Positions 11,536 to 49,700 of a stretch of DNA of 64,000 nt are shown here, one piece after another. Below the pieces are notes generated by a model. The model was given only the letters and a program-made list of their open reading frames with translations. It was not told the origin of the DNA and did no database searches. This stretch comes from Squalus acanthias (lineage: Eukaryota): the NCBI GenBank assembly GCA_030390025.1, contig JASTWF010000069.1, positions 248,001 through 312,000 of the forward strand, given 5' to 3'. A program made the position numbers and the translations under genes. Numbering within the stretch: the first letter of the stretch is position 1; the number at the start of each line of letters is the position of its first letter.

Positions 11536-12190
11536 TACACAAAGCAAGGTTCCACAAACAGCACTGAGATAAATGACCAGTTAATCTGTTTTGAATGTTG
11601 CTTGAGGGATAAATATTGGCCTGAGGACACGGGGGAGAACTCCCCTGCTCTTCTTTGAAATGATGGCCGTCCACCTGAGAGGCCTTGTTTAACGTTTCAT
11701 CCGAAAGACGGCACCTCCGACAGTGCGGCCCTGCCTCAGTACTGCCCCTCCGACAGTGCGGCGCGCCCTCAGTACTGCCCCTCCGACAGTGCGGCTCTCC
11801 CTCAGTACTGCTCCTCCGACAGTGCGGCACTCCCTCAGTACTGCCCCTCCGACAGTGCGGTGCTCCCTCAGTACTGCCCCTCTGACAGTGCGGCGCTCCC
11901 TCGGTTCTGCCCCTCCGACAGTGCGGAGCTGCCTCAGTACTGCCCCTCCGACAGTGCAGCGCTCCCTCAGTACTGCCCCTCCAACAGTGCATCGCTCCCT
12001 CAGTACTGCCCCTCCGACAGTGCGGAGCTCCCTCAGTACTGCCCCTCCGACAGTGCGGCGCTCCCTCAGAACTGCCCCTCCAACAGTGCGGCGCTCCCTC
12101 AGTACTGCCCCCCGACAGTGCGGAGCTCCCTCAGTACTGCCCCTCCGACAGTGCGGCGCTCCCTCAGAGCTATCCCTCCGACAGTGCATC
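11536..12190 (-). repeat. Deu-domain SINE fragment ending in a 33-bp minisatellite (~14 units, 11713-12190)
   Basis: Unit CAGTACTGCCCCTCCGACAGTGCGGCGCTCCCT, preceded by SINE body sequence (gagggataaatattggcc...aacgtttcatccgaaagacggcacc). Confidence 0.85.
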
Positions 12191-12335
12191 GCTCCCATCG
12201 ACAAACTGGTGCAAAACTTCACGCTCGGGTATTCGCCAAACTACTTGTAAATCTGGGACTGGGACATTCCCTTTGTAGGTACAGGGCAGCACAACCTGCC
12301 CCCCAAGAACCCAGAAACTGTGACAGGCAAAGAAC
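12187..12335 (-). pseudogene. Truncated IgV pseudo-exon (psiV1), inverted, upstream of gene A
   Basis: Reverse complement: ttccag|GSLPVTVSGF-(1-bp deletion)-GGQVVLPCTYKGNVPVPDLQVVWRIPEREVLHQFVDGSD, then minisatellite. The homologous upstream intron continues to ~12442. Confidence 0.9.
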
Positions 12336-12509
12336 CTGGAAAAGATTCAAAGTATTTATCCACAGATATAACCTCCCTGCTGGGACATTACATCCCAAGC
12401 TTCACAGGGATACACGGCAAGAAGCTCTGTGACCAATAACTGTGTGAGGCAGAGAGTGAACCGCAGTGTTACGGAAATTGAGAGGCTGCCGAACCACGAC
12501 GTGGTTCTG

Positions 12510-12683
12510 CGGTTTCAGTTCTCATTTCAAGACGTTTCATTTTACTGGGTCAATCCCGGGGCTGTGATTGGCCGCCAGGGGTGTCAGTCAGAGCTGAACC
12601 AACTGCTCAGCCCAAGATCCGACTGTCAGCTGTGAACCGCCCCCATTGTCCACAGTGAAGAGAGACTCCGGGCAGAGCGAGCG
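12510..12683 (+). promoter_or_regulatory. Putative promoter/5'UTR of gene A (ISRE-like motifs, inverted CCAAT)
   Basis: GTTTCAGTTC (12512-12521), GTTTCATTTT (12534-12543), ATTGG (12567-12571); CpG-rich; directly upstream of ATG|gtaaag. Confidence 0.5.
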
Positions 12684-15600
12684 ATGGTAAAGGTTCTGAC
12701 TAAAGGTCTTCGACCTGAAACATTAACTCTGTTTTTCTCTCCACAGATGCTGTCTGGCCTGCTCAGTTTTTCCAGCATTTTCTGTTATTTCGGATTTCCA
12801 ACATCCGCTGTATTTTGCTGTTGTATATGTGATGGTCTCGGCGCTGCGGGGAGGGGAAGGACCGGCCTCCGGGACTCTGTGTGGCTCGAATCACAAATTC
12901 AGTCTCCACACAGCACAGATGTAACCAAGACCTTTCCAGGGTGTCAGGCTAACCTGCCGCGGTTTGATGTCTGGATGTTACAAACTGATATGGGCGGGGG
13001 GACTGGGGGCTCGGTCTGTCTCTCCGTCAATCTCCGGCTCTGAACACACGGACAGGAGGAGGAGCACTGAGAGAGACTGAGACTGAGAGAGCGACGTTAT
13101 CCTTTAAAAAGGGGGCACATGCTGATCCTTATATTGGGGTAGGAGAGAGAGAGAGAGAGAGAGACTGACTGACTGACTGACTGACTGGGAGAGGGGTTGT
13201 CGTGGCCCCCCCGTGTCCGCACTCCCACTCTGCCTCACCCAGTCAGTAAACTCACTGAGGCTCTTTCCCCACCCGGGGAGAGTCGCCCCGCGGGTAAAGG
13301 ACCGCTCACTGGGCGGGGTTAAAATCTCCTTTTTCTCCGCTGTGTTTTGGGTGTTTGAGCTGCTCTGAAAAGGGGGCGATTCTGTTCCATTCCTGTGCTT
13401 TGTGTCGTTGCCCCTGGGGCAGAGTCTCCTAAAGGGGCTGTTAGACAAGGCAACTCCTCACCAGGCGGAGGAGGGAGGGCGAGAGAAGTTTAAATCACAA
13501 AACTCTCAATTACAGCAAGTGGGACATTGGAGGAATTGGTGGGTGGAGACTCATTGATCGCCTGTCAATCATCACCCGGGGGAAATGACCCTGAGCAGGA
13601 GGAAGGAACTGTGCAAAGGCTTCACTCTGCTTTCTTGTTGCAGGGATCGAGCTTGCTGAACCTGCTGCTGCTGCTGCTGAATATTGCTGGGGTTTCGGGT
13701 AAGTGCTGTGACTCGAGTAACATTTCAGTTCAAGTGTCAGTGGTTGATTCGTTGGGTCAGTGTCGAAGCCTGGGGGTGTGTGTGTGGACCTCAGTCCCAA
13801 ATCCAGCGGCAGTTTGGCTCTCTTACTGCCAGTTAACCGCCAGTGTGGGTCATTGATATTAATTGCATCAGGAAATCCTCGAGTTTGGAAGCACTGTATG
13901 TACTGCCTGTGGGCCATTGAGGGAGTGGACACAGTAGGTGAACTGAGAGCTGAAAGGAAGGCAGGTAATGTCTTCAGATTAACCCCTGTGATGTGATCCG
14001 CTGCTTTTGGTTTGTTTGATTCAGCCATTCCCAGGCTTTGGGTTGTAGTAATAAAGGTAGTTCAATGAACACATTGAAAATGTTTGATGAAATGTAACAT
14101 CTTATTTTGGATATTAGAAATTTGCAACTGATGCATAAACTAAACAAACTTTAAAATCCAATTTGAAGTTTATTTGTTGTAAAGTGTGATGCTGAGGTGG
14201 TTTTGACATAAATGTTTACGTAGGGAATCTCCATTTTAAATCTTTCCCATTAAAAATTACAAAAGAAATAATTGCTTGGTATAGACGGGACTTGTCGCTA
14301 TAAATTATAAAATTCTCATCCTCGTGTTCAAATCCCTCCATGGCCCTCGCCCCTCCCTATCTCTGTAACCTCCTCCAACCCTTCCAGATCTCTGCGCTCC
14401 TCCAATTCCGGCCTCTTGCACATCCCCCGATTTCCATCGCTCCACCATTGGCGGCCGTGCCTTCAGCTGCCTGGGCCCCGAGCTCTGGAATTCCCTCCCT
14501 AAACCTCTCCGCCTCTCTCTCTCCTCCTTTAAGACTCTGCTTAAAACCTACATCTTTGACAGAGTGTTTGGTCACCTGTTATAATATCTCCTTATGTGGC
14601 TCGGTGTCAAATTTTATTCGTTGATCGCTGCTGTGAAGCTTGGAAACACAAGGCCAGAGAATGAATAACACCCGGGCTGAGAAAAAGGCCTTGTCTTATC
14701 AGGGTATGATGCGTTTCCAAACTGTCTGTTGTTCGTACATCGCCCTTTCCTCCACAGTTTCACTCACTCTAAAAATGCTAAGGGAAAGGATGCTATATAA
14801 ATGGTGCTTGTTGTAAATAGTACATGCCTGAGCTTCAGCCTTCCCACAGCAGTGAAAGCAGTGAGTTACTGGTCAGAGCTTCTTGCAGTGTATCCCTGTG
14901 AAGCTTGGGATGGAATGTTCCAGCAGGGAGGTTATATCTGAGGATAAATACTTTGAATCTTTTCCAGGTTCTTTGCCTGTCACAGTTTCTGGGTTCCTTG
15001 GGGAGCAGGTTGTGCTGCCCTGTACCTACAAAGGGAATGCCTCAGTCCCAGATTTACAAGTCATTTGGCGAATACCCGGGCCTGAAGTTGTCCACAAGTT
15101 TGTCGATGGGAGCGATGATTTGACACAGCAAGACCCGCGGTTCAGAAACAGAACAAACCTCTTCAAAGATCAACTGGAACACGGCAACTGGTCAGTTCTG
15201 CTCTCTGACCTCAGGCAGTCGGACCAGAACAAGTATGACTGTCTGATTTTCAGGAGGACGGGTGAGGGCTTTGATCAGGAGCAAGCTGTTCTCGTCCATC
15301 TCTCTGTAACAGGTGAGAGGTTTCTGTTTCAGGGCTTCTGCATTGATCAGGAGTCTGTTAGCAATTTTATGGGTATGATAGTGGAGCGGTTCTGTTACTA
15401 GATTAATAATCCAGAGAAGGTGAGTTCAAATCCCACCATGGCACTTTGAGAATTTGAGAATAAATCTGGAAATAAAAAGTTGGTATCAATAGAAGTGACC
15501 ATGAAGCTGTTGAATTGCCATAAAACCCAACTGGTTCACTGATGTCCTTCAGGGAAGGAAACCTGCCGTCCTTACCCGGTCTGGTCTATAGGTGACTCCA

Positions 15601-18600
15601 GTCCCACACCAACGTGGTTGGCTTTTCATGGCCCTCTGTGGCCCAGCAAGCCAATAAGTTTCTATCAAACCACTAGAAAGAATTTTACTGAATGGGCCAG
15701 GCCACAGCAAAGGCAAATCCAGCCCAGCCGACCCTGCAAAGTCCTCCTCACTAACACCTGGAAACTGGTGCCCAAGTTGGGAGAGCTGTGTGACATAGTC
15801 ATACTCCCAGAATCAACCCTACATCCCAGACTCCTCTATCACCATCCCCGGGTATGTCCTGTCCCACCGGAAGGACAGACCCACCAGAGGTGGGAGCTCA
15901 GTGGTATACAGTCGGGTGGGAGTGGCCCCGGGAGTCCTCAACATTGACTCTGAACCCCATGAAGTCTCACGGCTTCAGGTTAAACCTGGGCAAGGAAACC
16001 TCCTGCTGATTACCACCTACCGCCCTCCCTCGGTGGTTGAATCAGCACTCCTCCATGTTGAACACCACTTGGAGGAAGCACTGAGGGTAGCAAGGGCACA
16101 GAATGTATTGAGTGGGAGACTGCAATGTCCATCACCAAGGGTGGCTCGGTACCACCACTGACCGAGCTGGCTGAGCCCTGAAGGACAGAGCTGCCAAACT
16201 GGGTGATGGATGGAGTCAGTGGTGCTCTGAAGCTGCACTCACTCACCAGGAACGGGCTACATCTGTCTCCAGATGTTGGGGTGCAGGAGCTTGGGCCCAA
16301 AGCACCTCTGGAGCAGCCTTTAAAAGACCCAGTGCTCTTACCTTGAAGGTGTATCCCAGTAGGCCCAGGATCCTGTGGGAATGCACTCCACAGGCGGATG
16401 TAGGCTGCTGGGAACGATACTGCTCGGGGTAACTCTGGAAATCTTCCATTCTGCCCCTCAGTTAATGCAATCCTGTTGGATTTTTCACTCTGCCGACCCT
16501 GTTGCTGATCCTTCCTGATCAGTTTGACCCCAGTCTCGTTCCTCCCTGGATGTGTTTCCCTGCAGCCCTATAGAGTCTTTGAACATTTCTGCAGTTTGTT
16601 TCACAATACTAAACGCATGATGTTTTCTTTAGAGCGAGCCCGTTCACCTGTACCGAACACGCCCGCACCAGGTAAGTCTGTTTCTAAACTACTGCATGTG
16701 TTTTCAGCTCTTACATTCTATCGTGCGGGATAGACGGGCAGTAACACTGGAAGGTTTGAAATGCTGTTTGATATTTTGCCAAAGAATGATTCTGAGAGTG
16801 AGTGGTGTGGGTCACCGTTACCTGGAACTGCTCTTTAAACTACCTGCAATTGTTATTTCTGCTTCTGAGCCTCGCCTTCCTGTCCCTCAGCGGCTGAACT
16901 CTGAGGATTCCCGCTTCCCGCTAGCATTAGTGTTTGTGGAAGTCTGTGGGAAAGTCCGAGCCCTCCTGTCGGGAAACTGACGGGACAGGGTGCAACGCTG
17001 GTTGAAGTCACCGGAGAGTAATATTGGCCCAGCTGTGAAACCGGCGTTCCACCCGATCCCGTGCAAAGAGCCAATTGTAAAAGCATTTTGAGATTTCATT
17101 GGTTCAAAGTGTGACGCCGAGATGTTTCCATTTAAAAATGGCAAAAGAATGATGCCTGCCTCACACGGGACTTGTCATTCTAAATAGTACATGCCTGAGC
17201 TTCAGCCTTCCCACAGCAGTGAAAGCAGTGAGTTACTGGTCAGAGCTTCTTGCAGTGTATCCCTGTGAAGCTTGGGATGTAATGTTCCAGCAGGGAGGTT
17301 ATATCTGTGGATAAATACTTTGAATCTTTTCCAGGTTCTTTGCCTGTCACAGTTTCTGTGTTCCTTGGGGAGCAGGTTGTGCTGCCCTGTACCTACAAAG
17401 GGAATGCCCCCGTCCCAGATTTACAAGTCCTTTGGCAAATACCTGGGCCTGAAGTTGTCCACCAGTTTGTCGATGGGAGCGATGATTTGACACAGCAAGA
17501 CCCGCGGTTCAGAAACAGAACAAACCTCTTCAAAGATCAACTGGAACACGGCAACTGGTCAGTTCTGCTCTCTGACCTCAGGCAGTCCGACCAGAACGAG
17601 TATGAGTGTCTGATTTTCAGGAGGACGGGTGTGGATTTTCATTGGGAGCAAGATGTCTCCGTCCGTCTCTCTGTAACAGGTGAGAGGTTTCTGTTTCTGC
17701 ATTGATCAGGAATCTGTTAGCAATTTTATGGGTACGATAGTGCAGGGGTTCTGTTACTAGATTAATAATCCAGAGGCCTGGGCTCATAATCCAGAGAAGG
17801 TGAGTTCAGATCCCACCATGGCACTTTCAGAATTTGAGAATAAATCTGGAAATAAAACGTTGGCATCAATAGAAGTGACCCTGAAGCTGTTGGATTGCCG
17901 TCAAACTCAACTAGTTCACTGATGTCCTTTAGGGAAGGAAACCTGCCGTCCTTACCCGGTCTGGTCTATAGGTGACTCCAGTCCCACACCAACGTGGTTG
18001 ACTTTTCACGGCCCTCTGTGGCCCAGCAAGCCAATCAGTTTCTATCAAACCACTAGAAAGATAAACAAGAATTAAATTGGACGAGCCAGGCATTGAACCA
18101 GGACACAGGAAAGGCAAATCCAGCCCAGTCAACCCTGCAAAGTCCTCCTCACTAACATCTGGGGACTGGAGCCCAAGTTGGGAGAGCTGTGTGACATGGT
18201 CATACTCCCAGAATCAACCCTACATCCCAGACTCCTCCATCACCATCCCCGGGTATGTCCTGTCCCACCGGAAGGACAGACCCACCAGAGGTGGGGGCTC
18301 AGTGGTATACAGTCGGGTGGGAGTGGCCCCGGGAGTCCTCAACATTGACGACAATGGGGAATAATATTGGGCCGGGTGTGAAACCGGCGTTCCACCCGAT
18401 CCCAAGACTTCCCCGACCCACAGATTAGTTTAAAATTCCCCCTCTGTTTCAGCGGGCTGTTGGGTTTAATTGTAGGGAGGCTGCTGCTTGTCAGTCTCCA
18501 GTTATCTCTATCGGGAAGCCTGTATCGATCGCATTGTGGGGCAGTGTGTGTGTGTGTTCAAGGAGCTGTGGGCTGGCCTGGTGTGTGTGATTATTGGAAT

Positions 18601-21400
18601 CTAACCTCTCCCATCGCTCCGGGGCTAGAATTGACCAGGGATCTATTTGTGCTGGGGATGGTTCTGAAGCACTCGGTGCTGAAGGTCTCTGCTGTTAGTT
18701 TGTGAGTGTGTCCCGGTCTGTTAACGGTTTATTCTGTCTCTAGATCCTGGACTCTCTACTGGAGCAGCAGTCGCATTGGGGATCGGAATTCTTGCTCTTC
18801 TTACTCTTGCTGTCATTGGGGTTTTCCTGATCCGAAAGCGATGGTGGTGAGTTCTAGAATGTGCCGCAGTTTCCATTGTTGATTCTAGTTTTGTTCTATT
18901 ACACTTTGTGTTTAAAGATGTTGTGTGCAGCGATACACTTTGAGCTGTGTGCGATGCTTCAATGTAGCATTATCCCGTCACTTCCAGCTTGTTGTCATCT
19001 CTGTTGCTCCGTTCACTAGCCACCGACTCCATCCCTCTCCCTGGCCACTGTCTGAGGCTGAACCAGTTCACAACCTCGGTGTCTTATTAGACCCTGAGCT
19101 GAGCTTCCGACCCGTATCCTCCCCATCACCAAGACCGCCTACTGCCACCTCCGTAACATCGCCCGTCTCCGCCCCTACCTCAGCTCATCTGCTGCTGAAA
19201 CCCTCATCCATGCCTTACCGCAAAACGCGACCATTTCAAAACTCTCCTTTCTGTATCCTAACTCGCACCAAGTCCCGTTCACCCATCACCCTCTGTGTTC
19301 ACTGACCTACATTCATCCTCCTGTTCAAATCCCTCCGTGGCCTCCTCCAGCCCCACAATCCTTCGAGATCTCTGCGCTCCTCCAATTCTGGCCTCTTGAG
19401 CATCCCTGATTTCCATCGCTCCACCATTGGTGGCCGTGACATCAGCTGCCTGGGCCCTAAGCTCTGGAATTCCCTCCCTAAACCTCTCCGCCTCTCTCCT
19501 CCTTTAAGATGCTCCTTAAAACTGACCTATTTGAGCAAGCTTTTGGTCTCCTGCCCTAATATCTCCTTATGTGGCTCGCTGTCAAATTTTGTTTGATCGC
19601 TCCTGTGAAGCACCTTGGGCGATAAAGGCGCTATATAAATTCAAGTTGTTGCTCTATCTCCACTTGTGCTTACATTTTTCAAACCACCCCCTTGACCCGG
19701 CCATCAGTGATTCCGATCACTGAGAAGGCCATCCTGGATTTCCTTGTCTCCCTCAACATCCACCTCTCCCTGCCCATCTCTTACCCCCCACTTCCCCCTT
19801 TGCCCCCCGATGGGGAGAAGGAACTATTGCTGGGATCTCTAACTCTTCTCTGGTCTTTCCCCGTCACGATATTTCTGCCTCCGTTAGCCTGTTTGGCCAC
19901 TGCTAGAACAGGCTTGACCACATCAAGGAATACCATCTCCATCTGTGGCTCTCAGTACTTCAGGATCAGACTGGAGAGTACGGACATGCCCAACATCCTC
20001 CTGTCTGATCTGATCCCCATCATCTTTTACTCATTTACTAGAGTTCTTTGATGTAACGAGCAGGGTGGATAAAGGGGAACCAGTAGATGTAGTGTATTTG
20101 GATTTCCAGAAGGTATTCGATAAGGTGCCACATAAAAGGTTACTGCACAAGATAAGAGCTCACGGGGTTGGGGGTAATATATTAGCATGGATAGAGGATT
20201 GGCTAACTAACAGAAAACAGAGAGTTGGGATAAATGGGTCATTTTCTGGTTGGCAAACTGTAACTAGTGGGGTGCCACAGGGATCAGTGCTGGGGCCTCA
20301 AATATTTACAATCTGTATTAATGACTTGGATGAAGGGACCGTGTGTACTGTAGCCAAATTTGCTGATGATACAAAGATAGGTGGGAACACAAGTTGTGAG
20401 GAGGACACAGTCTGCAAAGAGATATGGATAGGCTAAGTGGGCAAAAATTTGGCAGATGGAGTATAATGTGGGAAAATGTGAGGTTATCCACTTTGGTAGG
20501 AAAAATAAAAAAGCAAATTATTATTTAAATAGAGAGAGACTACATAATGCTGCAGTACAGAGGGATCTGGAGGTCCTCATACATGAAACACAAAGTTAGC
20601 ATGCAGGTACAGCAAGTAATTAGGAAGGCAAATGGAATGTTGGCCTTTATTGCAAGGGGGATGGAGTATAAAAGTAGGGAAGTCTTGCTACAACTGTACA
20701 GGGCGCTGGTGAGACCACACCTGGAGTACTGCGTACAGTTTTGGTCTCCTTATTTAAGGAGGGATAGGGATATACTTGCATTGGAGGCAGTTCAGAGAAG
20801 GTTCACTAGGTTGATTCCTGGGATGAAGGGGTTGTCTTATGAAGAAAGGTTGAGCAGGTTGGGTCTATACTCATTGGAGTATCGAAGAATGAGAGGGGAT
20901 CTTATCGAAACATATAAGATTCTGAGGGGGCTCGACAGGGTAGATGCAGGGAGGATGTTTCCCCTCGTGGGGGAATCTAGAATTAGGGGGCACAGTTTCC
21001 GGATAAGGGGTCGCCCATTTAAAACAGAGATGAGGAGGAATTTCTTCTGAGGGTCGTGAATCTTTGGAATTCTCTACCCCAGAGAGCTGTGGAGGCTGGG
21101 TCATTGAATATATTCAAGGCGGAGATAGACAGATATTTCAGCTACAGGGGAGTCAAGGGTTATGGGGAGCGGGCGGGAACGTGGCATTAAGGCCAAGATC
21201 AGATCAGCCATGATCTTATTGAATGGCGGGGCAGGCTCGAGGGGTGGAATGGCCGACTCCTGATACTATTTCTTATGTTCTCATCAATTCTTTCTTAATC
21301 TCCAAAATTGAGGCTAGCTGTCATTTTTCTATTTCTCTGGTGCCTCAGGCAGCACGGGTCCTGTGGAGTGTACAGCTCCTGCCCATTGCCTCCCCTATAA
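12684..21400 (+). CDS. Gene A: B7/butyrophilin-like receptor with two IgV domains (leader-V-linker-V-TM-short tail), ~313 aa; join(12684-12686,13644-13698,14968-15312,16633-16671,17335-17679,18744-18846,21349-21400)
   Basis: All introns GT-AG with consistent phases (0,1,1,1,1,2); 942 nt with no internal stop. The ATG-only first exon and the last exon are the least certain parts. Confidence 0.75.
12689..12830 (+). mobile_element. ~140-bp Penelope-like terminal-repeat insert with a degenerate hammerhead-like core
   Basis: Flanked by a GATGGT duplication (12683-12688, 12831-12836). The empty site is seen in the inverted copy at ~28212-28240. Core reads CTGACTA..AGGTC-TTC-GACCT-GAAAC. Confidence 0.6.
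13143..13187 (+). repeat. (GA)n(GACT)n microsatellite
   Basis: Seen directly; much shorter in the paralogous intron at ~47204-47217. Confidence 0.9.
13644..13698 (+). CDS. Gene A signal-peptide exon (GSSLLNLLLLLLNIAGVS-G)
   Basis: ttcttgttgcag| ... TCGG|gtaagt; hydrophobic core encoded by (CTG)6; phase 0-1. Confidence 0.85.
14300..14812 (+). mobile_element. L2-like 3' fragment / composite insertion in the leader-V intron
   Basis: ggccgtgccttcagctgcctggg...ctctggaattccctccctaaacc motif; TAAAT at both ends; absent from the paralogous intron at ~17165-17195. Confidence 0.65.
14968..15312 (+). CDS. Gene A IgV exon V1 (B7/BTN-family V-set domain)
   Basis: tttccag|...ACAG|gtgaga, 345 nt, phase 1-1. 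B-strand Cys (LPCTY), C-strand Trp, QDPRFRNRTNLF...GNWSV and DQNKYDC match the VTCN1/CD276/HHLA2/BTN IgV pattern. Confidence 0.92.
15400..16200 (+). mobile_element. tRNA-headed SINE-like segment plus degenerate LINE endonuclease fragment
   Basis: gagttcaaatccc B-box-like motif; LVPKLGEL..DIVILPES and LLLITTYRPPS endonuclease-like motifs; repeated at ~17790-18350, ~34090-34345 and ~49430-49985. Confidence 0.6.
16633..16671 (+). CDS. Gene A 39-bp Pro-rich linker/stalk exon (ERARSPVPNTPAP-G)
   Basis: tgttttctttag| ... CCAG|gtaagt, phase 1-1. Confidence 0.8.
17335..17679 (+). CDS. Gene A IgV exon V2
   Basis: ttttccag|...ACAG|gtgaga, 345 nt; 14 aa differences from V1. Confidence 0.92.
18744..18846 (+). 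CDS. Gene A transmembrane exon (DPGLSTGAAVALGIGILALLTLAVIGVFLIRKRW)
   Basis: ttctgtctctag| ... TG|gtgagt; hydrophobic span followed by RKR stop-transfer; phase 1-2. Confidence 0.88.
19050..19652 (+). mobile_element. L2-like LINE 3' fragment
   Basis: acaacctcggtgtc..gaccctgagctgagc, and a tail ending taaaggcgctatataaat..agttgttg; paralogues at ~38625-39235 and ~50700-51315. Confidence 0.7.
20031..21280 (+). mobile_element. Degenerate 5'-truncated CR1 LINE
   Basis: [39 protein letters not shown] in broken frames; paralogues at ~39615-40870 and ~51695-52945. Confidence 0.9.
21349..21400 (+). CDS. Gene A putative cytoplasmic-tail exon (W-QHGSCGVYSSCPLPPL*)
   Basis: ttttctatttctctggtgcctcag| acceptor, phase 2; conserved in all three units; AATAAA at 21593-21598. 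Confidence 0.6.
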
Positions 21401-22410
21401 ACCTCCTCTCCTCTATACTCTGCTCCATCAACGTGCAGCTCCTGTGACACATTTTCCAGCTACCAGTGGTGCCCAGGATGTTGTGTAATTTAATCGGTCT
21501 GTGCTCCTGAACGGCTCCTTTACACACTTGTCCAAAGTGTTGGATCCTTTTAACGTAACCTGCACTCTGCTGGTTTCTCTCCTAGGAAACAAAATAAAGA
21601 CTCCAGCAATCCAGAAGCAGCATCTAATGGCGGCCCTTTGACAAACGTGCCTTGTTCGGATGAAGCACGGAGCCTTGTGACAACAGCAGCTGAGCATCAG
21701 ACTGGAGCGGCTGGAGAACAAAACCTTCTGGGGAATCTGGCTGTCCAGCGCTGACTGAGTTTACACTGCACTGTGCCTGGGTCAGGGAGGGGCCGACCAG
21801 CCCGGTATTGTGGTTATCATAGAATAGCACAGCACAGGAGGAGGCCATTCTATCGAGTGACTCCTGGAGGGAAGTCTGAGCTCAGGCTTGGGATCAGCAG
21901 TCACTTCCCCCTCTCACCAGCACAGTCTCAGAGGAGATAAGCTCCCAATGGAACTGTTGCCCCTTCACTAGAAAAACTGTCCAATCGGTATTTTATTCTA
22001 TGCATTATATCGCGGCATTACTGTGTCCAAGCTCAGTCTCGGGAACATCCAGGACCACCTTTAGCTGTGTAACCCATTGATCACTCCCTGTGAGAGATGG
22101 TAACTCCTAAATATCCCATCAATGAGCGGGAACAACAGGCACTTTCTGATTAATTTCTTTACTTGTTCAGGGTGTGGGTGGTGTTGGCAGGGCCCCATTT
22201 CTTGACCATCTCGACTTGAACCACTGCAGTCTTTGTAGCGATGGCGCTCCCACAGTGGGGAATGTGGGAAGAGGCTTCAGAACCTCCCTCTGCAGCATCA
22301 CTCACGAGCCAGAGCCAGCGACGACATCATTGCCAGCAACTGCTTTATATACAGAATTTATATTCCAGGTGTTTTACAGATTGAAACTGTCTACAGCAAA
22401 AAATTATGCA

Positions 22411-23805: not shown

Positions 23806-24764
23806 TTGAATATTGCTTGAAGTTTTCAATCCAAGCAGTGATTAAAGAGAAGTCGGTCTTTATATTTGTCAGTGGATGTATAGAATCATTAGAAGGACAC
23901 AGCCGAGACAGAGGCCTCTATTTATAAACCCATAGACCTGTACCTGGCCACTGGCTTTTAATGATTTGTGAACCTTGGACTCCCAAATCTCTCTGCTCTA
24001 CAGTTCCTCATCTCTCACTGTTTTATACACACAATTCATATTCTAAATATTTTACATATGTCGACACGACTGATACTGCCTTAGTGACCAAAAATTGTGT
24101 CTGTGTACGCGCACCAAATCCCAAGAATCTTTTTGACCGATCGTAACCATTCCCGGGAAAAGGGCATTCGGGGTCGGAGAGTTAGGCGATTTTCCCAACT
24201 ACTGCCCAGCGAATGCCCGTGAAATTCTTGTGCTGGTAAAAGGCCTGGTTGGGCCAGCATACACGTAGAGGCCCAGGAAGGCGAGTCTACGTGGATCCCG
24301 AGGAACCAGGTAGGCGCGGATTGTATTCGGGTTCGGAGGCATTTCCCCGCGGGAAACCTCCGACCGCAAATTCAGGCCCTTTGTATGAATAAATAAATGT
24401 ATATAATATGTCTGCCTTTCTCTCCTGTATACTGGAATGTCACTTTTCTATATGTACATTTTGAACCTGTGATTAAAGGGAAGCCCATGTTTATATGAGT
24501 GGATGTACAGTCTTGCTTTGTTTAAGGACCGAAAGCAGAGTAACGGTGAACGGTTGTTTTTCAGACTGGAGGGAGGTATACAGTGGTGTCCAAGGGCTTG
24601 CTGTTGGGACCACTGCTCTTTTGATGTATATTAATGACCTGGTCTTGGGTATACAGGGCATCATTTCAAAGTTTGCAGATGACACGGAACTCTGAAATAT
24701 AATAAGACAGCGAGATGGGGCAGGAACAGACTTCAGGAGGATCGAGAGCGAGACAGACTGAATC

Positions 24765-25940: not shown

Positions 25941-25949
25941 CCTGTGGGT

Positions 25950-33965: not shown

Positions 33966-34344
33966 TGATGCCTCAATTTGAGAGTTCTCTGGACATTGTG
34001 AACAGGATCCCCACAAGTCATCTTTAGGAGGAGAATGTGCAGCAAATTCAGATGCAGAAACTCTTTGTCATGAAGTACTCTCTCCACCTCGTGACATAAT
34101 CATACTCCCAGAATCAACCCTACATCCCAGACTCCTCTATCACCATCCCCGGGTACATCCTGTCCCACCGGCAGGACAGACCCACCAGAGGTGGGGGCTC
34201 AGTGGTATACAGTCGGGTGGGATTGGCCCTGGGAGTCCTCAACATTGACTCCGGACCCCATGAAGTCTCACAGCTTCAGGTCAAACATGGGCAAGGAAAC
34301 CTCCTGCTGATTACCACCAACCGCCCTCCCTCAGCTGATGAATC

Positions 34345-35500: not shown

Positions 35501-35507
35501 GATTTAG

Positions 35508-40989: not shown

Positions 40990-41611
40990 ACCTCCTCTCC
41001 TCTACACTCTGTGCTCCATCAACGTGCAGCTCCTGTGACACATTTTCCAGCTACCAGTGGTGCCCAGGATGTTGTGTAATTTAATCGGTCTGCGCTCCTG
41101 AACGGCTCCTTTACACACTTGTCCAAAGTGTTGGATCCTTTTAACGTAACCTGCACTCTGCTGGTTTCTCTCCTAGGAAACAAAATAGAGACTCCAGCAA
41201 TCCAGAAGCAGCACCTACTGACGACCCTTTGACAAACGTGCCTTGTTCGGATGAAGCACGGGGCCTTGTGACAACAGCAGCTGAGCATCAGAATGGAGCG
41301 GCTGGAGAACAAAACCTTCCGGGGAACCTGGCTGTCCAGCACTGACTGAGCTTAGACACTAATGCCGCGATATACAATAGAATAAAATAACGATCGGACA
41401 GCTTTTCTAGTGAAGGGGCAACACTTCCATTGGGAGCATATCTCCTCTGAGACTGTGCTGGTGAGAGGGGGAAGTGACTGCTGATCCCAATCCTGAGCTG
41501 AGACTTTGCTCCAGGAGTCACTCGATAGAATGGCCTCCTTCTGTGCTGTGCTATTCTATGATTCTATGATTACCACAATACCGGGCTGCTCTGCCCCTCC
41601 CTGACCCAGGC

Positions 41612-42218
41612 AACGCCCCGGTAGTGCCTCAGACCGGATATTGAGTGGCACCCCCTGCCTTCGCGCCTGCCGCTCGGAACGACAGGTAGAGGGGAACGTT
41701 TTCAAGTCGGGAAGGGGCTGGGGGAGCGCTATTTAAAGGCGGGCGCTTCTTGCCTTTTCTTGTCGGCAAAACTTTTGGTTTTAACGCTGTCCTGAGGAGT
41801 TTTGGCCCTCAGCACCACTTTTGAGGTTCCTAAGCGCCGAGCTCTTTCCCTGGGCCTATCCATTAGTGCTTCCAACACAATTGCTTTTGAGGTCTCTCCA
41901 GGCTGAGATTCAAGGCTGCAATGAGCAGGGAGTGGCTGGCCAGCAAGATGGCCCCTCCCCTTTAAGAACTGGACGGCGCCAGTCTGGCTTCCATGGTAAG
42001 TGACATCGCCTGAGCTTCAGTAGCGTTCTGAGGTAGCACCTCGCTCCCTGACGTTTGCGCCTTGAGAGGTGTGTAGCGCCTGATTTAGCGCTCAAATCAC
42101 CTCCAGGGGCGATGGAGGCGAATTTTGCAGTCGGAGGTGATTATTAGCACCGGGCGCTAAACTTTGTGCCCGGCCGATATGGGCACCCCAAAATGGGCGA
42201 TACCGAATTTTTCCCCCT
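41612..42218. mobile_element. GC-rich truncated non-autonomous DNA-transposon-like segment, unit B only
   Basis: Ends in gaatttttccccc, like the other TIR elements here; replaces the sequence found in A and C; no left TIR seen. Confidence 0.4.
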
Positions 42219-42619
42219 AGATGTTTTACAGATTGAAACTGTCTACAGCAAAAAAATTATGCATTTATATTTGAATATTGCTTTTCTATATGAATTTTAC
42301 AATCCAAGCAGTGATTAAAGAGAAGCCGGTCTTCATATTTGTCAGTGGATGTGTAGAATCATAGAAGGACACAGCAGAGACAGAGGCCTCTATTTATAAA
42401 CCCATGGACCTGTACCTGGCCACTGGCTCTTAATGATTCGTGAACATTGGACTCCCAAATCACTCTGCTCTACAGTTCCTCATCTCTCACTGTTTTATAC
42501 ACACAATTCATATTCTCAATATTTTACATATGTCTTGACACGACTGATACTGCCTTACTGAGCAAAAATTGTTTGTTTCTTTGTGTGTATATATATATAT
42601 CTATATATATAATATATTT

Positions 42620-42961
42620 CGGCCCGTATTCTGTGGGGCATACGCACCCGTAAGGGTCCTGCAAGTTCCGGGTTTTCATGCGTGAAGCGCACGCGCGAAA
42701 ACCCGGAACGTGCGATCTGTCAAGAATCCTTTTGACCGATCGTAGCCATTCCCGGGAAAAGGGCATTCGCGGTTGGAGACGTGGGCTATTTTCCCAACTA
42801 CTGCCCAGCGCATGCCCGTGAAATTCTTGTGCTGGTAAAAAGCCTGGTTGGGCCAGCATACACGTAGAGGCCCAGGAAGGCGAGTCGACATGGATCCCGG
42901 GGAACCAGGTAGGCGTGGATTTTATTCGGGTTCGGAGGCATTTCACCGCAAATTCAGGCCC
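42620..42961. mobile_element. MITE-like element
   Basis: Imperfect TIRs ggcccgtatt / aattcaggcc; truncated copies at ~24105-24380 and ~55770-56045. Confidence 0.5.
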
Positions 42962-45249
42962 TTTGTGTAAATAAATAAATGTATATAATGTGTCTGCCTT
43001 TCTCTCTCCTGTATACTGGAATGTCACTTTTCTATATGTACATTTTGAACCTGTGATTAAAGGGAAGCCCCTGTTTATACGAGTGGATGTACAGTCTTGC
43101 TTTGTTTAAGGACCGAAAGCAGAGTAACGGTGAATGGTTGTTTTTCAGACTGGAGGGAGGTATACAGTGGTGTCCAAGGGCTTGCTGTTGGGACCACTGC
43201 TCTTTTGATGTATATTAATGACCTAGTCTTGGGTATACAGGGCATCATTTCAAAGTTTGCAGATGACATGGAACTCTGAAATGTAATAAGACAGCGAGAT
43301 GGGGCAGGAACAGACTTCAGGAGGATCGAGAGCGAGACAGACTGAATCATAGAATAGAATCAGAGAAATTTACAGCACAGGAGGAGGCCATTCGACTCAC
43401 TGTGTCTGTGCCGGCCGAATGAGCTATCCAGTCTAATCCCACTTTCCAGCTCTTGGTCCATGGCCCTGTAGGTTACGGCACTTCAAGTGCATATCCAAGA
43501 ACTTTTTAAATGTGATGAGGGTTTCTGCCTCTACCACCCTTTCAGGCAGTGAGTTCCAGACCCCCACCACCCTCTGGGTGAAAAAAGTTCTCCTCAACTC
43601 CCCTCTAATCCTTCTACCAATTACTTTAAATCTCTGCCCCCTGGTTATTGACCTCACTGCTAGGGGAAATAGGTCCTTCCTATCCACTCTATCTAAGCCC
43701 CTCATCATTTTATACACCTCAATTAAGTCCTTCCCTCAACCTCCTCTGTTCCAAAGAAAACAACCCCAGCCTATCCAATCTTTCCTCATAGCTAAAATTC
43801 TCCAGTCCTGGCAACATCCTCGTAAATCTCCTCTGCACCCGCTCTAGTGCAATCACGTCTTTCCTGTAATGTGGTGACCAGAACTGTGCACAGTACTCTA
43901 GCTGTGGCCTAACCAGCGTTTTATACAATTCAAGCATAACCTCCCTGCTCTTATATTCTATGCCTCGGCTAATAAAGGAAAGTATCCCGTATGCCTTCTT
44001 AACCACCTTATCTACCTGTCCGGTTACCTTCAGGGGTCTGTGGACATGCACTCCAAGGAGCCTCTGTTCCTCTACAAGTCTCAGTATCCTACCATTTATT
44101 GTGTATTCCCTTGCCTTGTTAGCCCTCCCCAAATGCATTACCTCACACTTCTCCAGTTTGAGTTCCATTTACCACTTCTCTGCCCACCTGACCAGTCCAT
44201 CGATATCTTCCTGCAGTCCACAGCTTTCTTCCTCATTATCAACCACATTGCCAATTTTTGTATCATCTGCAAAATTCTTAATCATGCCCCCTACATTGAA
44301 GTCTAAATTACTGATATATACCACAAAAAGCAAGGGGCCTAGTACAGAACCCCACTGGAAACAGCCTTCCAGTCACAGAAACACCCGTCGGCCATTACCC
44401 TTTGTTTCCTGCCACTGAGCCAATTTTGGATCCAACTTGCCACGTTCCCGTGGATCCCGAGAGCTTTTACTTTTCTGACCAGTCTGCCATGTGGGACCTT
44501 GTCAAAAGCCTTGCTAAAATCTATGTAGAGTACATCAACCCGACAATCCTATGGGGAGCACCTTCACCACACGGGACGGCGGCGGTTCAAGAAGAAGGCC
44601 CGCCAACACTTTCTCAAGGGACGACGAGGGATGGGCAATAAATGCCGGCCTTGCCAGCGACATCTCGAGAATTATTATTTCAAAAATGTGGCAACTCATT
44701 CGTTCCACTGCTTTTACATCCAGTAGATTGTGCTCCATTATGAAGACCCTTTTTATATGGACGGGTCCTTAGCCTGATGAACAATGCCCTACCAGGAGGG
44801 TCCGGCTAGATACGATGGGTGTCGGGTTGACACTCCACTCCCATCGGGCACCAGAACCTCGCTGGATGTCAACCCAGTATTCAGAGACTGGAATTCTCGC
44901 CTCCGCTCGCCAGGGTAGAGGTAACAAGTCGGGATCGGAATAAAGAGGTAAAAAGGTGTCTGGTGAAAAAGCCACAGCCATGAGGAGGTTCAATGTGTCT
45001 CAGATACTGGAACAAGCCCAGCAGCAACCAATGGAGGGTTCAATGTGTCCTGGACACTGAAGTAAACTCAATCACAATGATGAGGAAGGTCGAGTTGATC
45101 CTGGAGAATGCTTGCAATCAGAAGTAGTGTGTCTGGAGGCCACACGGACAGTCAAACATGATCCAAATCATAGCAACACGAGGAGAGACCCCCAACCAAC
45201 AGTCCAATGAATCTCGGAAAGGTAATTCCCATTTTCAGTTTTCTCACTT

Positions 45250-46160
45250 TACACACAGCAAGGTCCCACAAACAGCACTGAGATAAATGACCAGTTAATC
45301 TGTTTTGGATGTTGCCTGAGGGATAAATATTGGCCTGAGGACACCGGGGAGAACTCCCCTGCTCTTCTTTGAAATGATGGCCGTCCACCCGAGAGGCCTT
45401 GTTTAACGTTTCATCTGAAAGACGGCACCTCCGACAGTGCGGCCCTGCCTCAGTACTGCCCCTCTGACAGTGTGGCGCTCCCTCAGTTCTGCCCCTCTGA
45501 CAGTGCGGAGCTCCCTCAGTACTGCCACTCCGACAGTGCGGTGCTCCCTCAGTACTGCTCCTCCGACAGTGCGGCGCTCCCTCAGTACTGCCCCTCCGAC
45601 AGTGCGGCACTCCCTCAGTACTGCCCCTCTGACAGTGCGGTGCTCCCTCAGTACTGCCCCTCCGACAGTGCGGCGCTCCCTCAGTACTGCCCCTCCGACA
45701 GTGCAGCGCTCCCTCAGTACTGCCCCTCCGACAGTGCAGCGCTCCCTCAGTACTGCCCCTCCGACAGTGCGGCGCTCCCTCTGTACCGCCCCTCCGACAG
45801 TGCAGCGCTCCCTCAGTACTGCCCCTCCGACAGTGCGGCGCTCCCTCTGTACCGCCCCTCCGACAGTGCGGTGCTCCCTCAGTACTGCTCCTCCGACAGT
45901 GCAGCGCTCCCTCAGTACTGCCCCTCCGACAGTGCGGCGCTCCCTCTGTACTGCCCCTCCGACAGTGCGGTGCTCCCTCAGTACTGCCCCTCCGATAGTG
46001 CGGCGCTCCCTCTGTACCGCCCCTCCGACAGTGCGGCGCTCCCTCAGTACTGCCCCTCCGACAGTGCAGCGCTCCCTCAGTACTGCCCCTCCGACAGTGC
46101 GGCGCTCCCTCAGTACCGCCCCTCCGACAGTCCCTCAGTACTGCCTCTCCGACAGTGCAT
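45250..46160 (-). repeat. Deu-SINE fragment plus 33-bp minisatellite (~22 units, 45428-46160)
   Basis: Same unit and context as 11536-12190. Confidence 0.9.
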
Positions 46161-46307
46161 CGCTCCCATCGACAAACTTGTGCAAAACTTCATGCTCCGC
46201 TATTCGCCAAACTACTTGTAAATCTGGGACTGGGGCATTCCCTTTGTAGGTACAGGGCCGCACAACCTGCTCCCCAAGGAACACAGAAACTCTGACAGGC
46301 AAAGAAC
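46158..46307 (-). pseudogene. Truncated IgV pseudo-exon (psiV2), inverted, upstream of gene C
   Basis: ttccag|GSLPVRVSVFLGEQVVRPCTYKGNAPVPDLQVVWRIAEHEVLHKFVDGSD, then minisatellite. Confidence 0.9.
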
Positions 46308-46549
46308 CTGGAAAAGATTCAAAGTGTTTATCCACAGATATAACCTCCCTGCTGTGAATCTTTTATTCAAACCAATAATACCAATTACATAGTAAAACCA
46401 TTACATTCATCCATCACAGTAAATACAGTACAAATACCGCCAAAGAATAGAACACAATTAATTGTGTTTTTTCCTCCACTCTGTGACTTACAATCCCCCA
46501 ACTTCACTTGGTTCCACCGCAAGAAGCTTATATACTACAACTGTAACTG

Positions 46550-46742
46550 GGTGAGTCAGAGAGGCGGCCTAACCACAGGTGACGTCCATCCGGGGCTGTG
46601 ATTGGCCGCCAGGGGTGTGAGTCAGAGCGACCATTGCTCCGCCCAAGTCCTGCGCAGCGCATCCGGCACAGTGAATGTAAATTCTCCAGTGTGTGATGTG
46701 ACCATTGTCCACAGTGAAGAGAGACTCCGGGCAGAGCGAGCG
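46550..46742 (+). promoter_or_regulatory. Putative promoter of gene C (AP-1, X1/X2-like CRE, inverted CCAAT)
   Basis: TGAGTCA (46552-46558, 46618-46624), CCTAACCACAGGTGACGTC (46568-46586), ATTGG (46601-46605). Confidence 0.5.
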
Positions 46743-49700
46743 ATGGTAAAGGTTCTGACGAAAGGTCCTCGACCTGAAACATTAACTCTGTTTTTCTCTC
46801 CACAGATGCTGTCTGGCCTGCTGAGTTTTTCCAGCATTTTTTGTTGTTATTTCGGATTTCCAACATCCGCTGTATTTTGCTGTTGTATATGTGATGGTCT
46901 CGGCGCTGCGGGGAGGGAGAGACCGGCCTCCGGGACTCTGTGTGGCTCGAATCACAAATTCAGTCTCCACACAGCACAGATGTAACCAAGACCTTTACAG
47001 GGTGTCAGGCTAACCTGCCGCGGTTTGATGTCTGGATGCTGCAAACTGATATGGGCGGGGGGACTGGGGGCTCGGTCTGTCTCTCCGTCAATCTCCGGCT
47101 CTGAACACAGGGACAGGAGGAGGAGCACTGAGAGAGACTGAGACTGAGAGAGCGACGTTATCCTTTAAAAAGGGGGCACATGCTGATCCTTAAATTAGGG
47201 TAAGAGAGAGACTGACTGGGAGAGGGGTTGTCGTGGCCTCCCGTGTCCGCACTCCCACTCTGCCTCATCCAGTCAGTAAACTCACTGAGGCTCTTTCCCC
47301 ACCCGGGTTAAGGGCCGCTCACTGGGCGGGGTTAAAATCTCCTTTTTCTCCGCTGTGTTTTGGGTGTTTGAGCTGCTCTGAAAAGGGGGCGATTCTGTTC
47401 CATTCCTGTGCTTTGTGTCGCTGCCCCTGGGGCAGTGTCTCCTAAAGGGGCTGTTAGACAAGGCAACTCCTCACCAGGCGGAGGAGGGAGGGCGAGAGAA
47501 GTTTAAATCACAAAACTCTCAATTACAGCAAGTGGGACATTGGAGGAATTGGAGACTCATTGATCGCCTGTCAATCATCACCCGGGAGCAATGACCCTGA
47601 GCAGGAGGAAGGAACTGTGCAAAGGCTTCACTCTGCTTTCTTGTTGCAGGGATCGAGCTTGCTGAACCTGCTGCTGCTGCTGCTGCTGCTGAATACTGCT
47701 GGGGTTTCAGGTAAGTGCTGTGACTCGAGTAACATTTCAGTTCAAGTGTCAGTGGTTGATTCGTTGGGTCAGTGTCGAAGCCTGGGTGTGTGTGTGGACC
47801 TCAGTCCCAAATCCAGCGGCAGTTTGGCTCTCTTACTGCCAGTTAACCGCCAGTGTGGGTCATTGATATTAATTGCATCAGGAAATCCTCGAGTTTGGAA
47901 GCACTGTATGTACTGCCTGTGGGCCATTGAGGGAGTGGACACAGTAGGTGAGCTGAGAGCTGAAAGGAAGGCAGGTAATGTCTTCAGATTAACCCCTGTG
48001 ATGTGATCCGCTGCTTTTGGTTCGTTTGATTCAGCCATTCCCAGGCTTTGGGTTGTAGTAATAAAGATAGTTCAATGAACACATTGAAAATGTCTGATGA
48101 AACATAACATCTTATTTTGGACATTAGAAATTTGCAACTGATGCATAAACTAAACAAACTTTAAAATCCAATTTGAAGTTTATCTGTTGGAAAGTGTGAT
48201 GCTGAGGTGGTTTTGACATTATAAATGTTTACGCAGGGAATCTCCATTTTAAATCTTTCCCATTTAAAAATTACAGAAGAAATAATTGCTTGGCATACAC
48301 GGGACTTGTCGCTATAAATTATAAAATTCTCATCCTCGTGTTTAAATCCCTCCATGGCCCTCGCCCCTCCCTATCTCTGTCACCTCCTCCAACCCTTCCA
48401 GATCTCTGCGCTCCTCCAATTCTGGCCTCTTGCGCATCCCCCGATTTCCATCGCTCCACCATTGGCGGCCGTGCCTTCAGCTGCCTGGGCCCCAAGCTCT
48501 GGAATTCCCTCTCTCTCCTCTAAGATGCTGCTTAGAACCGACCTCTTTGACAGAGCGTTTGGTCACCTGTTATAATATCTCCTTATATGGCTTGGTGTCA
48601 AAATTTATTCGTTGATCGCTGCTGTGAAGCCTGGAAACACAAGGCCAGAAAATGAATAACACCCGGGCTGAGAAAAAGGCCTTGTCTTATCAGGGTATGA
48701 TGCGTTTCCAAACTGTCTGTTGTTCGTACATCGCCCTTTCCTCCACAGTTTCTCTCACTCTGAAAATGCTCAGGGAAAGGATGCTCAGGGAAAGGATGCT
48801 ATATAAATGGTGCTTGTTGTAAATAGTACATGCCTGAGCTTCAGCCTTCCCACAGCAGTGAAAGCAGTGAGTTACTGGTCAGAGCTTCTTGCAGTGTAAC
48901 CCTGTGAAGTTTGGGATGTAATGTCCCAGCAGAGAGGTTATATCTGTGGATAAATACTTTCAATCTTTTCCAGGTTCTTCGCCTGTCACAGTTTCTGGGT
49001 TCCTTGGGGGGCAGGTTGTGCTGCCCTGTACCTACAAAGGGAATGCCCCAGTCCCAGATTTACAAGTACTTTGGCAAATATCCGAGCGTGAAGTTTTGCA
49101 CCAGTTTGTCAATGGGAACGATGATTTGACACAGCAAGACCCGCGGTTCAGAAACAGAACAAACCTCTTCAAAGATCAACTGGAACACGGCAACTGGTCA
49201 GTTCTGCTCTCTGACCTCAGGCAGTCCGACCAGAACGAGTATGAGTGTCTGATTTTCAGGAGGACGCGTGTGGTCTTTTATTGGGTGCAAGATGTCTCAG
49301 TCCTTCTCTCTCTAACAGGTGAGGTTTCTGTTTCTGCATTGATCAGGAGTCTGTCAGCAATTTTATGGGTACGATAGTGCAGGGGTTCTGTTACTAGATT
49401 AATAATCCAGAGGCCTGGGCTCATAATCCAGAGAAGGTGAGTTCAAATCCCACCATGGCACTTTGAGAATTTGAGAATAAATCTGCAAATAAAAAGTTGG
49501 TATCAAAAGAAGTGACCCTGAAGCTGTTGGATTGTCGTCAAACCCAACTGGTTCACTAATGTCCCTTAGGGAAGGAAACCTGCCATCCTTACCCGGTCTG
49601 GTCTATAGGTGACTCCAGTCCCACACCAACATGGTTGACTTTTCACGGCCCTCTGTGGCCCAGCAAGTCAATCAGTTTCTATCAAACCACTAGAAAGATA

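What the first reader, a model, noticed from the sequence alone, without database searches (positions are those of the whole stretch)
12187..49318. Mosaic V sequences plus inverted upstream pseudo-V exons: candidate gene-conversion diversification system
Seen: among the five V copies, neighbouring sites group the copies incompatibly. Codon 9 GTG joins V2+psiV2; codon 13 GGG joins V3+psiV1; codon 35 CAA joins V2+V3; codon 42 GTC joins V1+V2; codon 44 AAG joins V1+psiV2. Pairs 9/42, 35/42 and 42/44 each show all four haplotypes within ~110 bp. Each intact gene has a truncated psiV in opposite orientation ~350-440 bp upstream of its ATG. Established: upstream pseudo-V donors diversify chicken Ig genes by conversion. 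Inference: short-tract conversion among paralogues. Germline exchange is sufficient to explain the pattern; a somatic process is speculative.
Basis: partly seen in the sequence, partly recalled or inferred. Interest (0 to 1): 0.8.

Follow-up and report, generated by a model that had tools for sequence, protein, structure and literature searches.

The report
Shark B7-like receptor genes swapping DNA
These are shark cell-surface immune-type receptor genes, not antibody genes; their duplicated copies have traded DNA in the germline as many gene families do, and the two broken fragments beside them look like leftovers of one old rearrangement rather than a chicken-style donor library.

Summary
The V exons are not antigen-receptor V segments. 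They are B7/CD276/MOG-type V-set exons of two intact shark genes, L-V1-V2-TM-tail and L-V3-TM-tail, from a tandem family found in 11 other sharks. V2 is a second domain and has no ATG or pseudo-V of its own.

Both pseudo-Vs keep intron DNA and stop at the same base, in a 10-nt microhomology with a 33-bp minisatellite. They are one rearrangement, duplicated.

Germline exchange is clear outside V: a breakpoint at 20813-20881 (0 of 5000 permutations) starts a 6.8-kb tract only 0.15% diverged. Inside V it is only moderately supported. Homoplasy gives P about 0.01 if the pseudo-Vs are neutral and 0.05-0.09 with strong site-rate variation; tract tests are not significant.

A donor system is not supported. 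There is one half-exon per gene, V3 and its own pseudo-V are the second most divergent of the 10 pairs (16 of 196), 12 of 25 variable residues lie outside the pseudo-Vs, and no RSS was found. Closest known cases: chicken BG genes and SIGLEC11/16P.

The parts
12187..12441 (-). psiV1: about 105 bp of intron 2 plus codons 1-50 of the V exon; has a 1-bp deletion; ends at a minisatellite junction
11714..12196 (.). 33-bp minisatellite (14.7 copies) joined to psiV1 through a 10-nt microhomology
12684..12686 (+). gene 1 start codon at the end of exon 1, followed by a GT donor (inferred ATG; 5' end of exon not mapped)
13644..13698 (+). gene 1 leader exon
14968..15312 (+). V1, B7-type V-set exon, first domain of gene 1
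17335..17679 (+). V2, second V-set exon of gene 1 (no own promoter or psiV)
18744..18846 (+). gene 1 transmembrane exon
21586..21754 (+). gene 1 cytoplasmic exon; no tyrosine in the last 70 aa; matches the shark family tail
20881..27677 (+). homogenised tract, 10 differences in 6797 columns against 52546-59460; left breakpoint 20813-20881; includes the tail exon and LINE fragments
28007..28513 (-). inverted copy of the promoter, exon 1 and intron 1 start (second copy at 59771-60267)
34091..44555 (+). third, headless gene copy: post-V intron pieces, TM exon (about 38319-38421) and tail exon (about 41177-41345), no V or leader found
45428..46167 (.). 33-bp minisatellite joined to psiV2 at the same junction as psiV1
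46158..46357 (-). psiV2: about 50 bp of intron 2 plus codons 1-50, reading frame open; same 3' junction as psiV1
46488..46585 (-). older, much more diverged homologue (roughly 70% by eye) of the psiV1 upstream/intron-2 segment, in the gene 2 spacer
46743..46745 (+). gene 2 start codon at the end of exon 1 (inferred)
47650..47710 (+). gene 2 leader exon
48974..49318 (+). V3, single V-set exon of gene 2
50374..50479 (+). gene 2 transmembrane exon (in-frame 3-bp insertion relative to gene 1)
53251..53419 (+). gene 2 cytoplasmic exon; protein identical to that of gene 1

Best explanation
This is part of a tandem, rearrangement-prone cluster of shark B7/MOG/BG-like V-only membrane proteins that evolves by segmental duplication, exon duplication and loss, and germline non-allelic recombination. 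SHOWN: two intact genes, a headless third copy, inverted promoter fragments, and a multi-kb homogenised tract. INFERRED: one inverted duplication or template switch, resolved at a 10-nt microhomology between V codon 50 and the minisatellite, left an inverted half-exon beside the promoter, and this cassette was then duplicated with the gene. Because the half-exons are about 92-95% identical to the V exons, they take part in occasional germline exchange with V copies, probably including copies outside this window. They look like recipients at least as much as donors. Diversity concentrates on the C-C' and F-G strands, which is inferred (from general knowledge of PD-L1/B7 domains) to be the partner-binding face under relaxed or diversifying selection.
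For: B7-family identity: best PDB sequence hits CD276 1e-17, B7-H4 1.3e-14, MOG 2.3e-10; best fold hit B7-H4. 50 of 50 hits in the longer-length search are shark proteins, 61-76% identical; 13 of those 50 have two V domains. Both spliced ORFs are open with GT-AG introns. The psiVs share one junction, and the matching variant minisatellite unit occurs once more in the array. TM-tail triplet: unique sites 30/28/29 left of 20813-20881 and 0/34/1 right, 0 of 5000 permutations as extreme. 6 of 10 psi1/psi2 differences fall on the 20 of 196 columns variable among the Vs, and 3 share both alleles; with neutral psi branches P(overlap) <=0.005 and P(shared) 0.004-0.05. 21 of 25 variable residues lie in positions 32-48 or 88-113, and variable positions are also variable in 58 other shark domains (mean entropy 1.90 vs 0.70, P 1e-7). 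Horn shark paralogues are mosaic at protein level (P 0.002-0.003).
Against: No tract inside V is significant: GENECONV-like 0 of 10 and 0 of 6 pairs, PHI-like P 0.16-0.71, V1/V2/V3 max-chi P 0.14. Homoplasy is not significant if all branches share strong rate heterogeneity (P 0.05-0.09). The overlap and shared-allele statistics were chosen after seeing the data, and branch lengths were set by hand from the ML trees. Only 1 of 7 shark groups gave a significant mosaic test. Whole-exon pN/pS is not clearly above 1 (0.061/0.064, 0.101/0.057, 0.059/0.070). The near-identical tract could be an assembly chimera. Direction of transfer is not shown.
Confidence: 0.72

Rival explanations
1. Inside the V exon there was no exchange: a tree plus recurrent mutation at CpGs and at selected, hypervariable codons makes the incompatible sites. 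Exchange elsewhere in the block is unaffected by this rival.
For: Only 4 extra steps; P 0.05-0.09 under ML-level heterogeneity. Tract tests are negative. Codon 35 is a CpG transition. Codons 35, 42 and 44 vary across other sharks.
Against: Selection cannot act on truncated psiVs, and with neutral psi branches plus CpG x10 the pattern has P 0.007-0.014. Codon 9 is Gly in 58 of 58 other shark domains yet Val in both V2 and psiV2.
Confidence: 0.15
2. The psiVs are a maintained germline donor reservoir that feeds C-C' loop variants into the functional genes, like a repeated SIGLEC16P-to-SIGLEC11 event.
For: Codon 9 Val, at a position that is Gly in 58 of 58 other domains, is more easily born in a pseudogene and passed to V2. 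psiV2 keeps an open frame and a distinct C-C' loop. The psiVs cover the C-C' region. An older diverged homologue in the gene 2 spacer suggests the inverted copy is old and has been refreshed.
Against: It rests on one site. V3 differs from its own psiV2 at 16 of 196 columns, from psiV1 at 9; V1 differs from its own psiV1 at 11 and from V2 at 8. 12 of 25 variable residues are outside psi coverage. psiV1 has a frameshift. A single accidental junction explains the layout.
Confidence: 0.09
3. Somatic, AID-dependent pseudogene-templated conversion diversifies these receptors within an animal, as in chicken Ig genes.
For: Layout only: a truncated, inverted V fragment upstream of each promoter. A review passage notes some evidence of gene conversion in cartilaginous fish Ig V regions (PMC4279169). 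V1 has 26 WRCY/RGYW motifs against 19.5 expected, P 0.035.
Against: Not an Ig/TCR locus; no RSS-like site; one half-exon per gene against more than 20 pseudo-V in chicken IgL (PMC3487963). No hotspot excess in V2 or V3 (P 0.12, 0.21), no WGCW excess in any, and AGY Ser codons are 1 of 8, 1 of 8 and 0 of 9.
Confidence: 0.03
4. The near-identical 6.8-kb tract, and possibly part of the duplication, is an assembly artefact (haplotype duplication or chimeric repeat resolution). This can hold together with the other explanations.
For: 10 differences in 6797 columns in a repeat-rich region with minisatellites and LINEs.
Against: Divergence grades from 2-5% through about 0.15% to 0.2-0.8% and back to 1.6-3.6%. 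The two units differ structurally (V1-V2 versus V3; different spacers), and a third copy is equidistant left of the breakpoint.
Confidence: 0.15

Closest known systems
Chicken BG genes (B7/butyrophilin-related tandem array; PMC5043582 section 3.3 read in full plus passages, PMC4046983 abstract)
   Same: B7-superfamily V domain, tandem array, copy-number change, hybrid genes, germline segmental exchange among V exons
   Different: BG swaps are reported in CDR1/CDR2-equivalent loops with a significant PHI test (p 0.0017); here variation is in the C-C' and F-G strands and tract tests in the window are negative. The CDR1-loop dimer cysteine described for BG was not seen in V1-V3. The tail here is one short exon. 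Orthology to BG was not tested.
SIGLEC11 / SIGLEC16P (PMC5701461, abstract and passages)
   Same: Head-to-head IgSF V-set copies where a non-functional copy exchanged sequence with the functional gene in the germline
   Different: SIGLEC16P is a null allele of a whole paired receptor 9 kb away with a documented kb-scale conversion; here the partner is a 200-255 bp fragment about 2.5 kb from the V exon, and donor direction rests on one site
Shark 'CD276-like / MOG-like / VTCN1-like' predicted proteins
   Same: Same leader, V, TM and tail; one or two V domains; several paralogues per species that report the same longest-contig length, suggesting one cluster
   Different: Those names are automatic labels; the family lacks the C-type domain of true CD276/B7-H4. 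No paper describing the family was found in my searches. Whether other sharks have inverted psiVs was not checkable.
Avian Ig pseudogene-templated gene conversion (PMC3487963 passages)
   Same: Truncated V homologues upstream of a functional V
   Different: Non-rearranging B7-type gene, no RSS/J/C, one half-exon rather than more than 20 donors, no somatic evidence

Membership tests
Ig/TCR V gene segment | RSS 3' of V, separate J segment | tested here: not met
   No heptamer/12 or 23 spacer/nonamer match on either strand of the window; each V ends in a GT donor; G strand lies in the exon
Ig/TCR V gene segment | Closest sequence and fold are antigen-receptor V domains | tested here: not met
   None of the 60 PDB sequence hits shown (of 100) is an Ig/TCR V; top are CD276, B7-H4, MOG, PD-L1; top folds B7-H4 and PD-L1
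Avian-type pseudogene conversion system | Array of many diverse upstream donors covering the variable loops | tested here: not met
   One psiV per gene, both from one junction, codons 1-50 only
Avian-type pseudogene conversion system | Donor-templated tracts in the acceptor, with cis donors used | tested here: inconclusive
   No significant tract in 10 pairs; V3 is closer to the other gene's psiV; one suggestive site at codon 9; only germline copies could be compared
Avian-type pseudogene conversion system | Somatic, AID-dependent, in lymphocytes | not testable with these tools
   No reads or expression data; hotspot content mostly unremarkable
B7/butyrophilin/MOG superfamily | B7-type V-set ectodomain | tested here: met
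   Pfam V-set above cut-off for 3 of 3
B7/butyrophilin/MOG superfamily | Type I membrane protein with leader and TM | tested here: met
   Spliced ORFs of 339 and 227 aa with hydrophobic leader and TM exons
Canonical B7 (CD276/B7-H4) or butyrophilin proper | C-type Ig domain after V (and B30.2 tail in most BTN) | tested here: not met
   V splices to TM in the models; tail is 55 aa; all 50 hits carry the V-set family, none is listed as B30.2 from my reading of the accessions
Butyrophilin/BG/MOG | MHC linkage | tested here: inconclusive
   White shark MHC is on chromosome 19 (TNX at 104 Mb) whereas its family members report a 16.5-Mb longest contig; family gene IDs were absent from the PMC10751288 supplement. 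Points away from linkage; the window's own position is unknown
Multigene family under germline segmental exchange (BG-like behaviour) | Hybrid or homogenised segments between paralogues | tested here: met
   Breakpoint 20813-20881, 0.15% tract, horn shark mosaic; assembly caveat applies

The most novel reading that the evidence does not exclude
A shark B7-like, non-rearranging receptor is diversified within the animal using a promoter-adjacent inverted half-exon, either by AID-triggered templated conversion or by repeated inversion between the psiV/V inverted repeats (about 2.5 kb apart, flanking promoter and leader). Such inversion would also switch the gene off and on. This would be pseudogene-templated somatic diversification outside antigen receptors.
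Probability: 0.03. Interest if true: 0.9.

Novelty: new member of a known kind. Interest (0 to 1): 0.3.

Why it matters
The mechanism is ordinary. What remains of interest is the family: a cluster of V-only B7-like receptors found in many sharks, with variation focused on one face and lineage-specific expansion, behaving like chicken BG genes. Four literature searches aimed at it, showed no paper describing it, but the library lacks most subscription journals and the main B7-evolution paper was not held. If its partner were a T-cell or NK receptor or a pathogen, it would inform how B7/butyrophilin surveillance evolved. The somatic version would matter a great deal but has almost no support.

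Tried and rejected
1. Ig/TCR identity: rejected.

2. A single crossover in the 105-bp block that is identical in V1-V3 (codons 50-84), making V2 or V3 a two-part hybrid. Unique sites shift from 6/3/15 to 34/11/17 across it, but max-chi P is 0.14, V2 and V3 stay 4-5% apart downstream, and the block is conserved family-wide. Not established.

3. Tract detection in V (GENECONV-like on 5 and 4 sequences, PHI-like): negative.

4. AID hotspot enrichment: only V1 marginal.

5. MHC linkage, a lead from memory about catshark chromosome sizes: not supported.

6. The minisatellite as a derivative of the shark SacSINE1/Deu SINE is recalled, not tested; passages of PMC5499810 did not mention tandem repeats.

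7. Rfam scan of the window: 0 matches.

8. The parsimony counts printed were wrong because of a script bug and were replaced; the pairwise differences and ML trees are used. The tblastn and the spliced-model and TM/tail translation checks used off-frame coordinates and were replaced.

9. Whether other sharks have inverted psiVs stayed unchecked, because no shark DNA collection was available.
Full report
Observation. The window is repeat-rich vertebrate DNA with a duplication of about 31.6 kb period. A sensitive self-search with the V1 region found three full V exons and two inverted fragments, 12187-12441 and 46158-46357. It also shows a dominant split, V1+V2 versus V3+psiV1+psiV2, at 15062, 15079, 15090 and 15092, and at 14919 just outside the strict overlap. 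Over the 196 ungapped columns shared by all five copies, 24 vary and the best of 15 trees needs 32 steps against a minimum of 28.

What the genes are. All three exons are Pfam V-set. The best solved relatives of V2 are CD276 (1e-17), B7-H4 (1.3e-14), MOG and PD-L1. A confident model of V1 (pLDDT 92) matches B7-H4 and PD-L1 best. Splicing gives two open genes with GT-AG introns: leader-V1-V2-TM-tail (339 aa) and leader-V3-TM-tail (227 aa), with no tyrosine in the last 70 residues. The ATG placement is inferred from the donor site and frame. V2 is therefore a second domain, not a third gene. A third TM and tail exon pair at about 38.3 and 41.2 kb has no V. No RSS-like site was found on either strand with up to 1 heptamer and 2 nonamer mismatches (the consensus motifs are recalled).

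The family. All 50 hits of a search among 201-2000 aa proteins are from 11 shark species, 61-76% identical, under assorted automatic names. Leader, TM and tail align with the window's. Thirteen of the 50 have two V domains. In a tree of 61 distinct domains the window's three group with sawshark (96/99), and horn shark domains form one group. Several paralogues per species report the same longest-contig length, which suggests one cluster per genome; this is inference.

Origin of the pseudo-Vs. Both carry intron-2 DNA and the splice acceptor, so they are genomic fragments. Both stop at the same base after codon 50, where the V exon shares 10 nt with a variant unit of the adjacent 33-bp minisatellite; that unit occurs once more in the psiV1 array. 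The simplest reading is one microhomology-mediated rearrangement, later duplicated with the promoter cassette: flanking element DNA differs by 2.2-2.5% and intron DNA by 0.7-6%. Inversions are common here. There is a fold-back at 9619-10890 and there are inverted promoter/exon-1 copies at 28007-28513 and 59771-60267. The gene 2 spacer holds an older diverged homologue of the psiV1 upstream segment (score 61 against a shuffled maximum of 29), so the inverted copy may be old and partly refreshed.

Is there exchange? Outside V, yes. Among the three TM-tail copies, unique sites run 30/28/29 up to 20813 and 0/34/1 from 20881; 0 of 5000 permutations were as extreme. Genes 1 and 2 then differ at 10 of 6797 columns, against 2-5% to the left. 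This tract covers the tail exon and LINE debris, so it is not V-directed. An assembly chimera cannot be excluded without reads.

Inside V the evidence is moderate. Four extra steps have P 0.0003-0.0007 under uniform rates and 0.009-0.09 as heterogeneity rises to the ML estimate. Selection cannot shape truncated fragments, so I also simulated heterogeneous V branches with neutral psi branches and CpG x10. This gave P 0.007-0.014 for homoplasy, at most 0.005 for 6 of 10 psi1/psi2 differences falling on V-variable columns, and 0.004-0.05 for 3 shared allele pairs. The last two statistics were chosen after seeing the data. No tract was significant: 0 of 10 and 0 of 6 pairs, PHI-like P 0.16-0.71, V triplet max-chi P 0.14. 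Horn shark paralogues show clustered compatibility at protein level (P 0.0027 and 0.0017), but the other 6 of 7 groups tested do not, and these are predicted proteins.

Are the pseudo-Vs donors? Mostly no. V3 differs from its own psiV2 at 16 of 196 columns and from psiV1 at 9; V1 differs from psiV1 at 11 and from V2 at 8. The fragments cover codons 1-50. Twelve of 25 variable residues, and 11 of 16, 14 of 26.5 and 6 of 15.5 nonsynonymous differences, lie beyond them in the F-G strands. The psi differences sit on positions that vary in functional genes, which suits a recipient that has sampled selected paralogues. For a somatic AID process, only V1 shows a marginal hotspot excess (P 0.035); V2, V3, WGCW counts and Ser codon use do not.

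Function. Twenty-one of 25 variable residues lie in positions 32-48 and 88-113, the C-C' and F-G strands of the model. The variable positions are also variable across sharks (entropy 1.90 against 0.70, P 1e-7, window rows excluded). That this face binds partners in B7 proteins is general knowledge, not tested here. Whole-exon pN/pS is near 1, so positive selection is suggested, not shown. The most likely role is a cell-surface ligand or adhesion/pathogen-contact molecule without tyrosine signalling.

Comparison. Chicken BG genes are B7-related V-domain genes in a tandem array with hybrid genes and cassette exchange (PMC5043582, passages and section 3.3 in full; PMC4046983, abstract and outline). 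SIGLEC16P converted the head-to-head SIGLEC11 in the human germline (PMC5701461, abstract and passages), so an inverted pseudogene acting as an occasional germline donor to a V-set receptor is known. Chicken IgL uses more than 20 pseudo-V on a pre-rearranged V (PMC3487963, passages). Gene conversion among shark IgSF domains is reported for UrIg2 (PMC12227049, passages) and for catshark MHC II (PMC9992475, passages); a review mentions some evidence for it in shark Ig V regions (PMC4279169, passages). MHC linkage was not supported (PMC10751288 passages and supplement term searches; PMC11401434 passages). PMC12841164 (passages) did not address this family in the passages seen. Searches (listings and abstract starts) showed no description of the family or of such cassettes; Flajnik et al. 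2012 was not held and may cover it.

Verdict. The pattern is real. It is best read as ordinary germline exchange in a dynamic shark B7-like cluster, with the pseudo-Vs as duplicated rearrangement debris. It is a new member of a known kind; interest 0.3.

Noticed in passing
window 1593-7640 (-): Near-complete GC-rich non-LTR retrotransposon: CCHC-knuckle ORF1, endonuclease and reverse transcriptase in separate frames; Tx1/L1-like by recall
   Followed up: partly
window 304-1251 (-) and 35651-38155 (+): GDSL/esterase-like ORF (315 aa) and an 834-aa RT ORF of another LINE family (CR1-like by recall); many fragments of it lie across the window
   Followed up: partly
window 9619-10890: Fold-back palindrome, arms 86-98% complementary around about 10260, with CCAAT/GC-box-like sequence near the centre; related copies at about 27.3-29.2 kb and 59.1-61.0 kb
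   Followed up: partly
window 28225-28384 and 59989-60148: 45-bp tandem repeat (3.6 copies) that multiplies the exon-1 ATG/donor region inside the inverted promoter copy
   Followed up: no
window 11714-12196, 25952-26480, 32985-33849, 45428-46131, 57617-58244: Five arrays of one 33-bp minisatellite, several at or near rearrangement junctions; possibly derived from a shark Deu-SINE (recalled, untested); they generate spurious long ORFs
   Followed up: partly
window 15113-15220 and the matching parts of V2 and V3: About 105 bp (codons 50-84) identical in all three V exons, including 22 synonymous sites; conversion or constraint plus chance
   Followed up: partly
window 12187-15117 and 46158-49123: psiV and V form inverted repeats about 2.5 kb apart around promoter and leader; recombination between them would flip the promoter (one search shows the gene 1 pair)
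   Followed up: no
protein P0029 (Cetorhinus maximus): A gene model fuses a family V-TM unit to a PRDM7/9-like KRAB-SET protein; probably a read-through annotation, implying a PRDM9-like neighbour of the cluster in that species
   Followed up: no
window 50374-50479: Gene 2 TM exon has Arg, Pro and an extra Phe relative to gene 1, while the tails are identical
   Followed up: no
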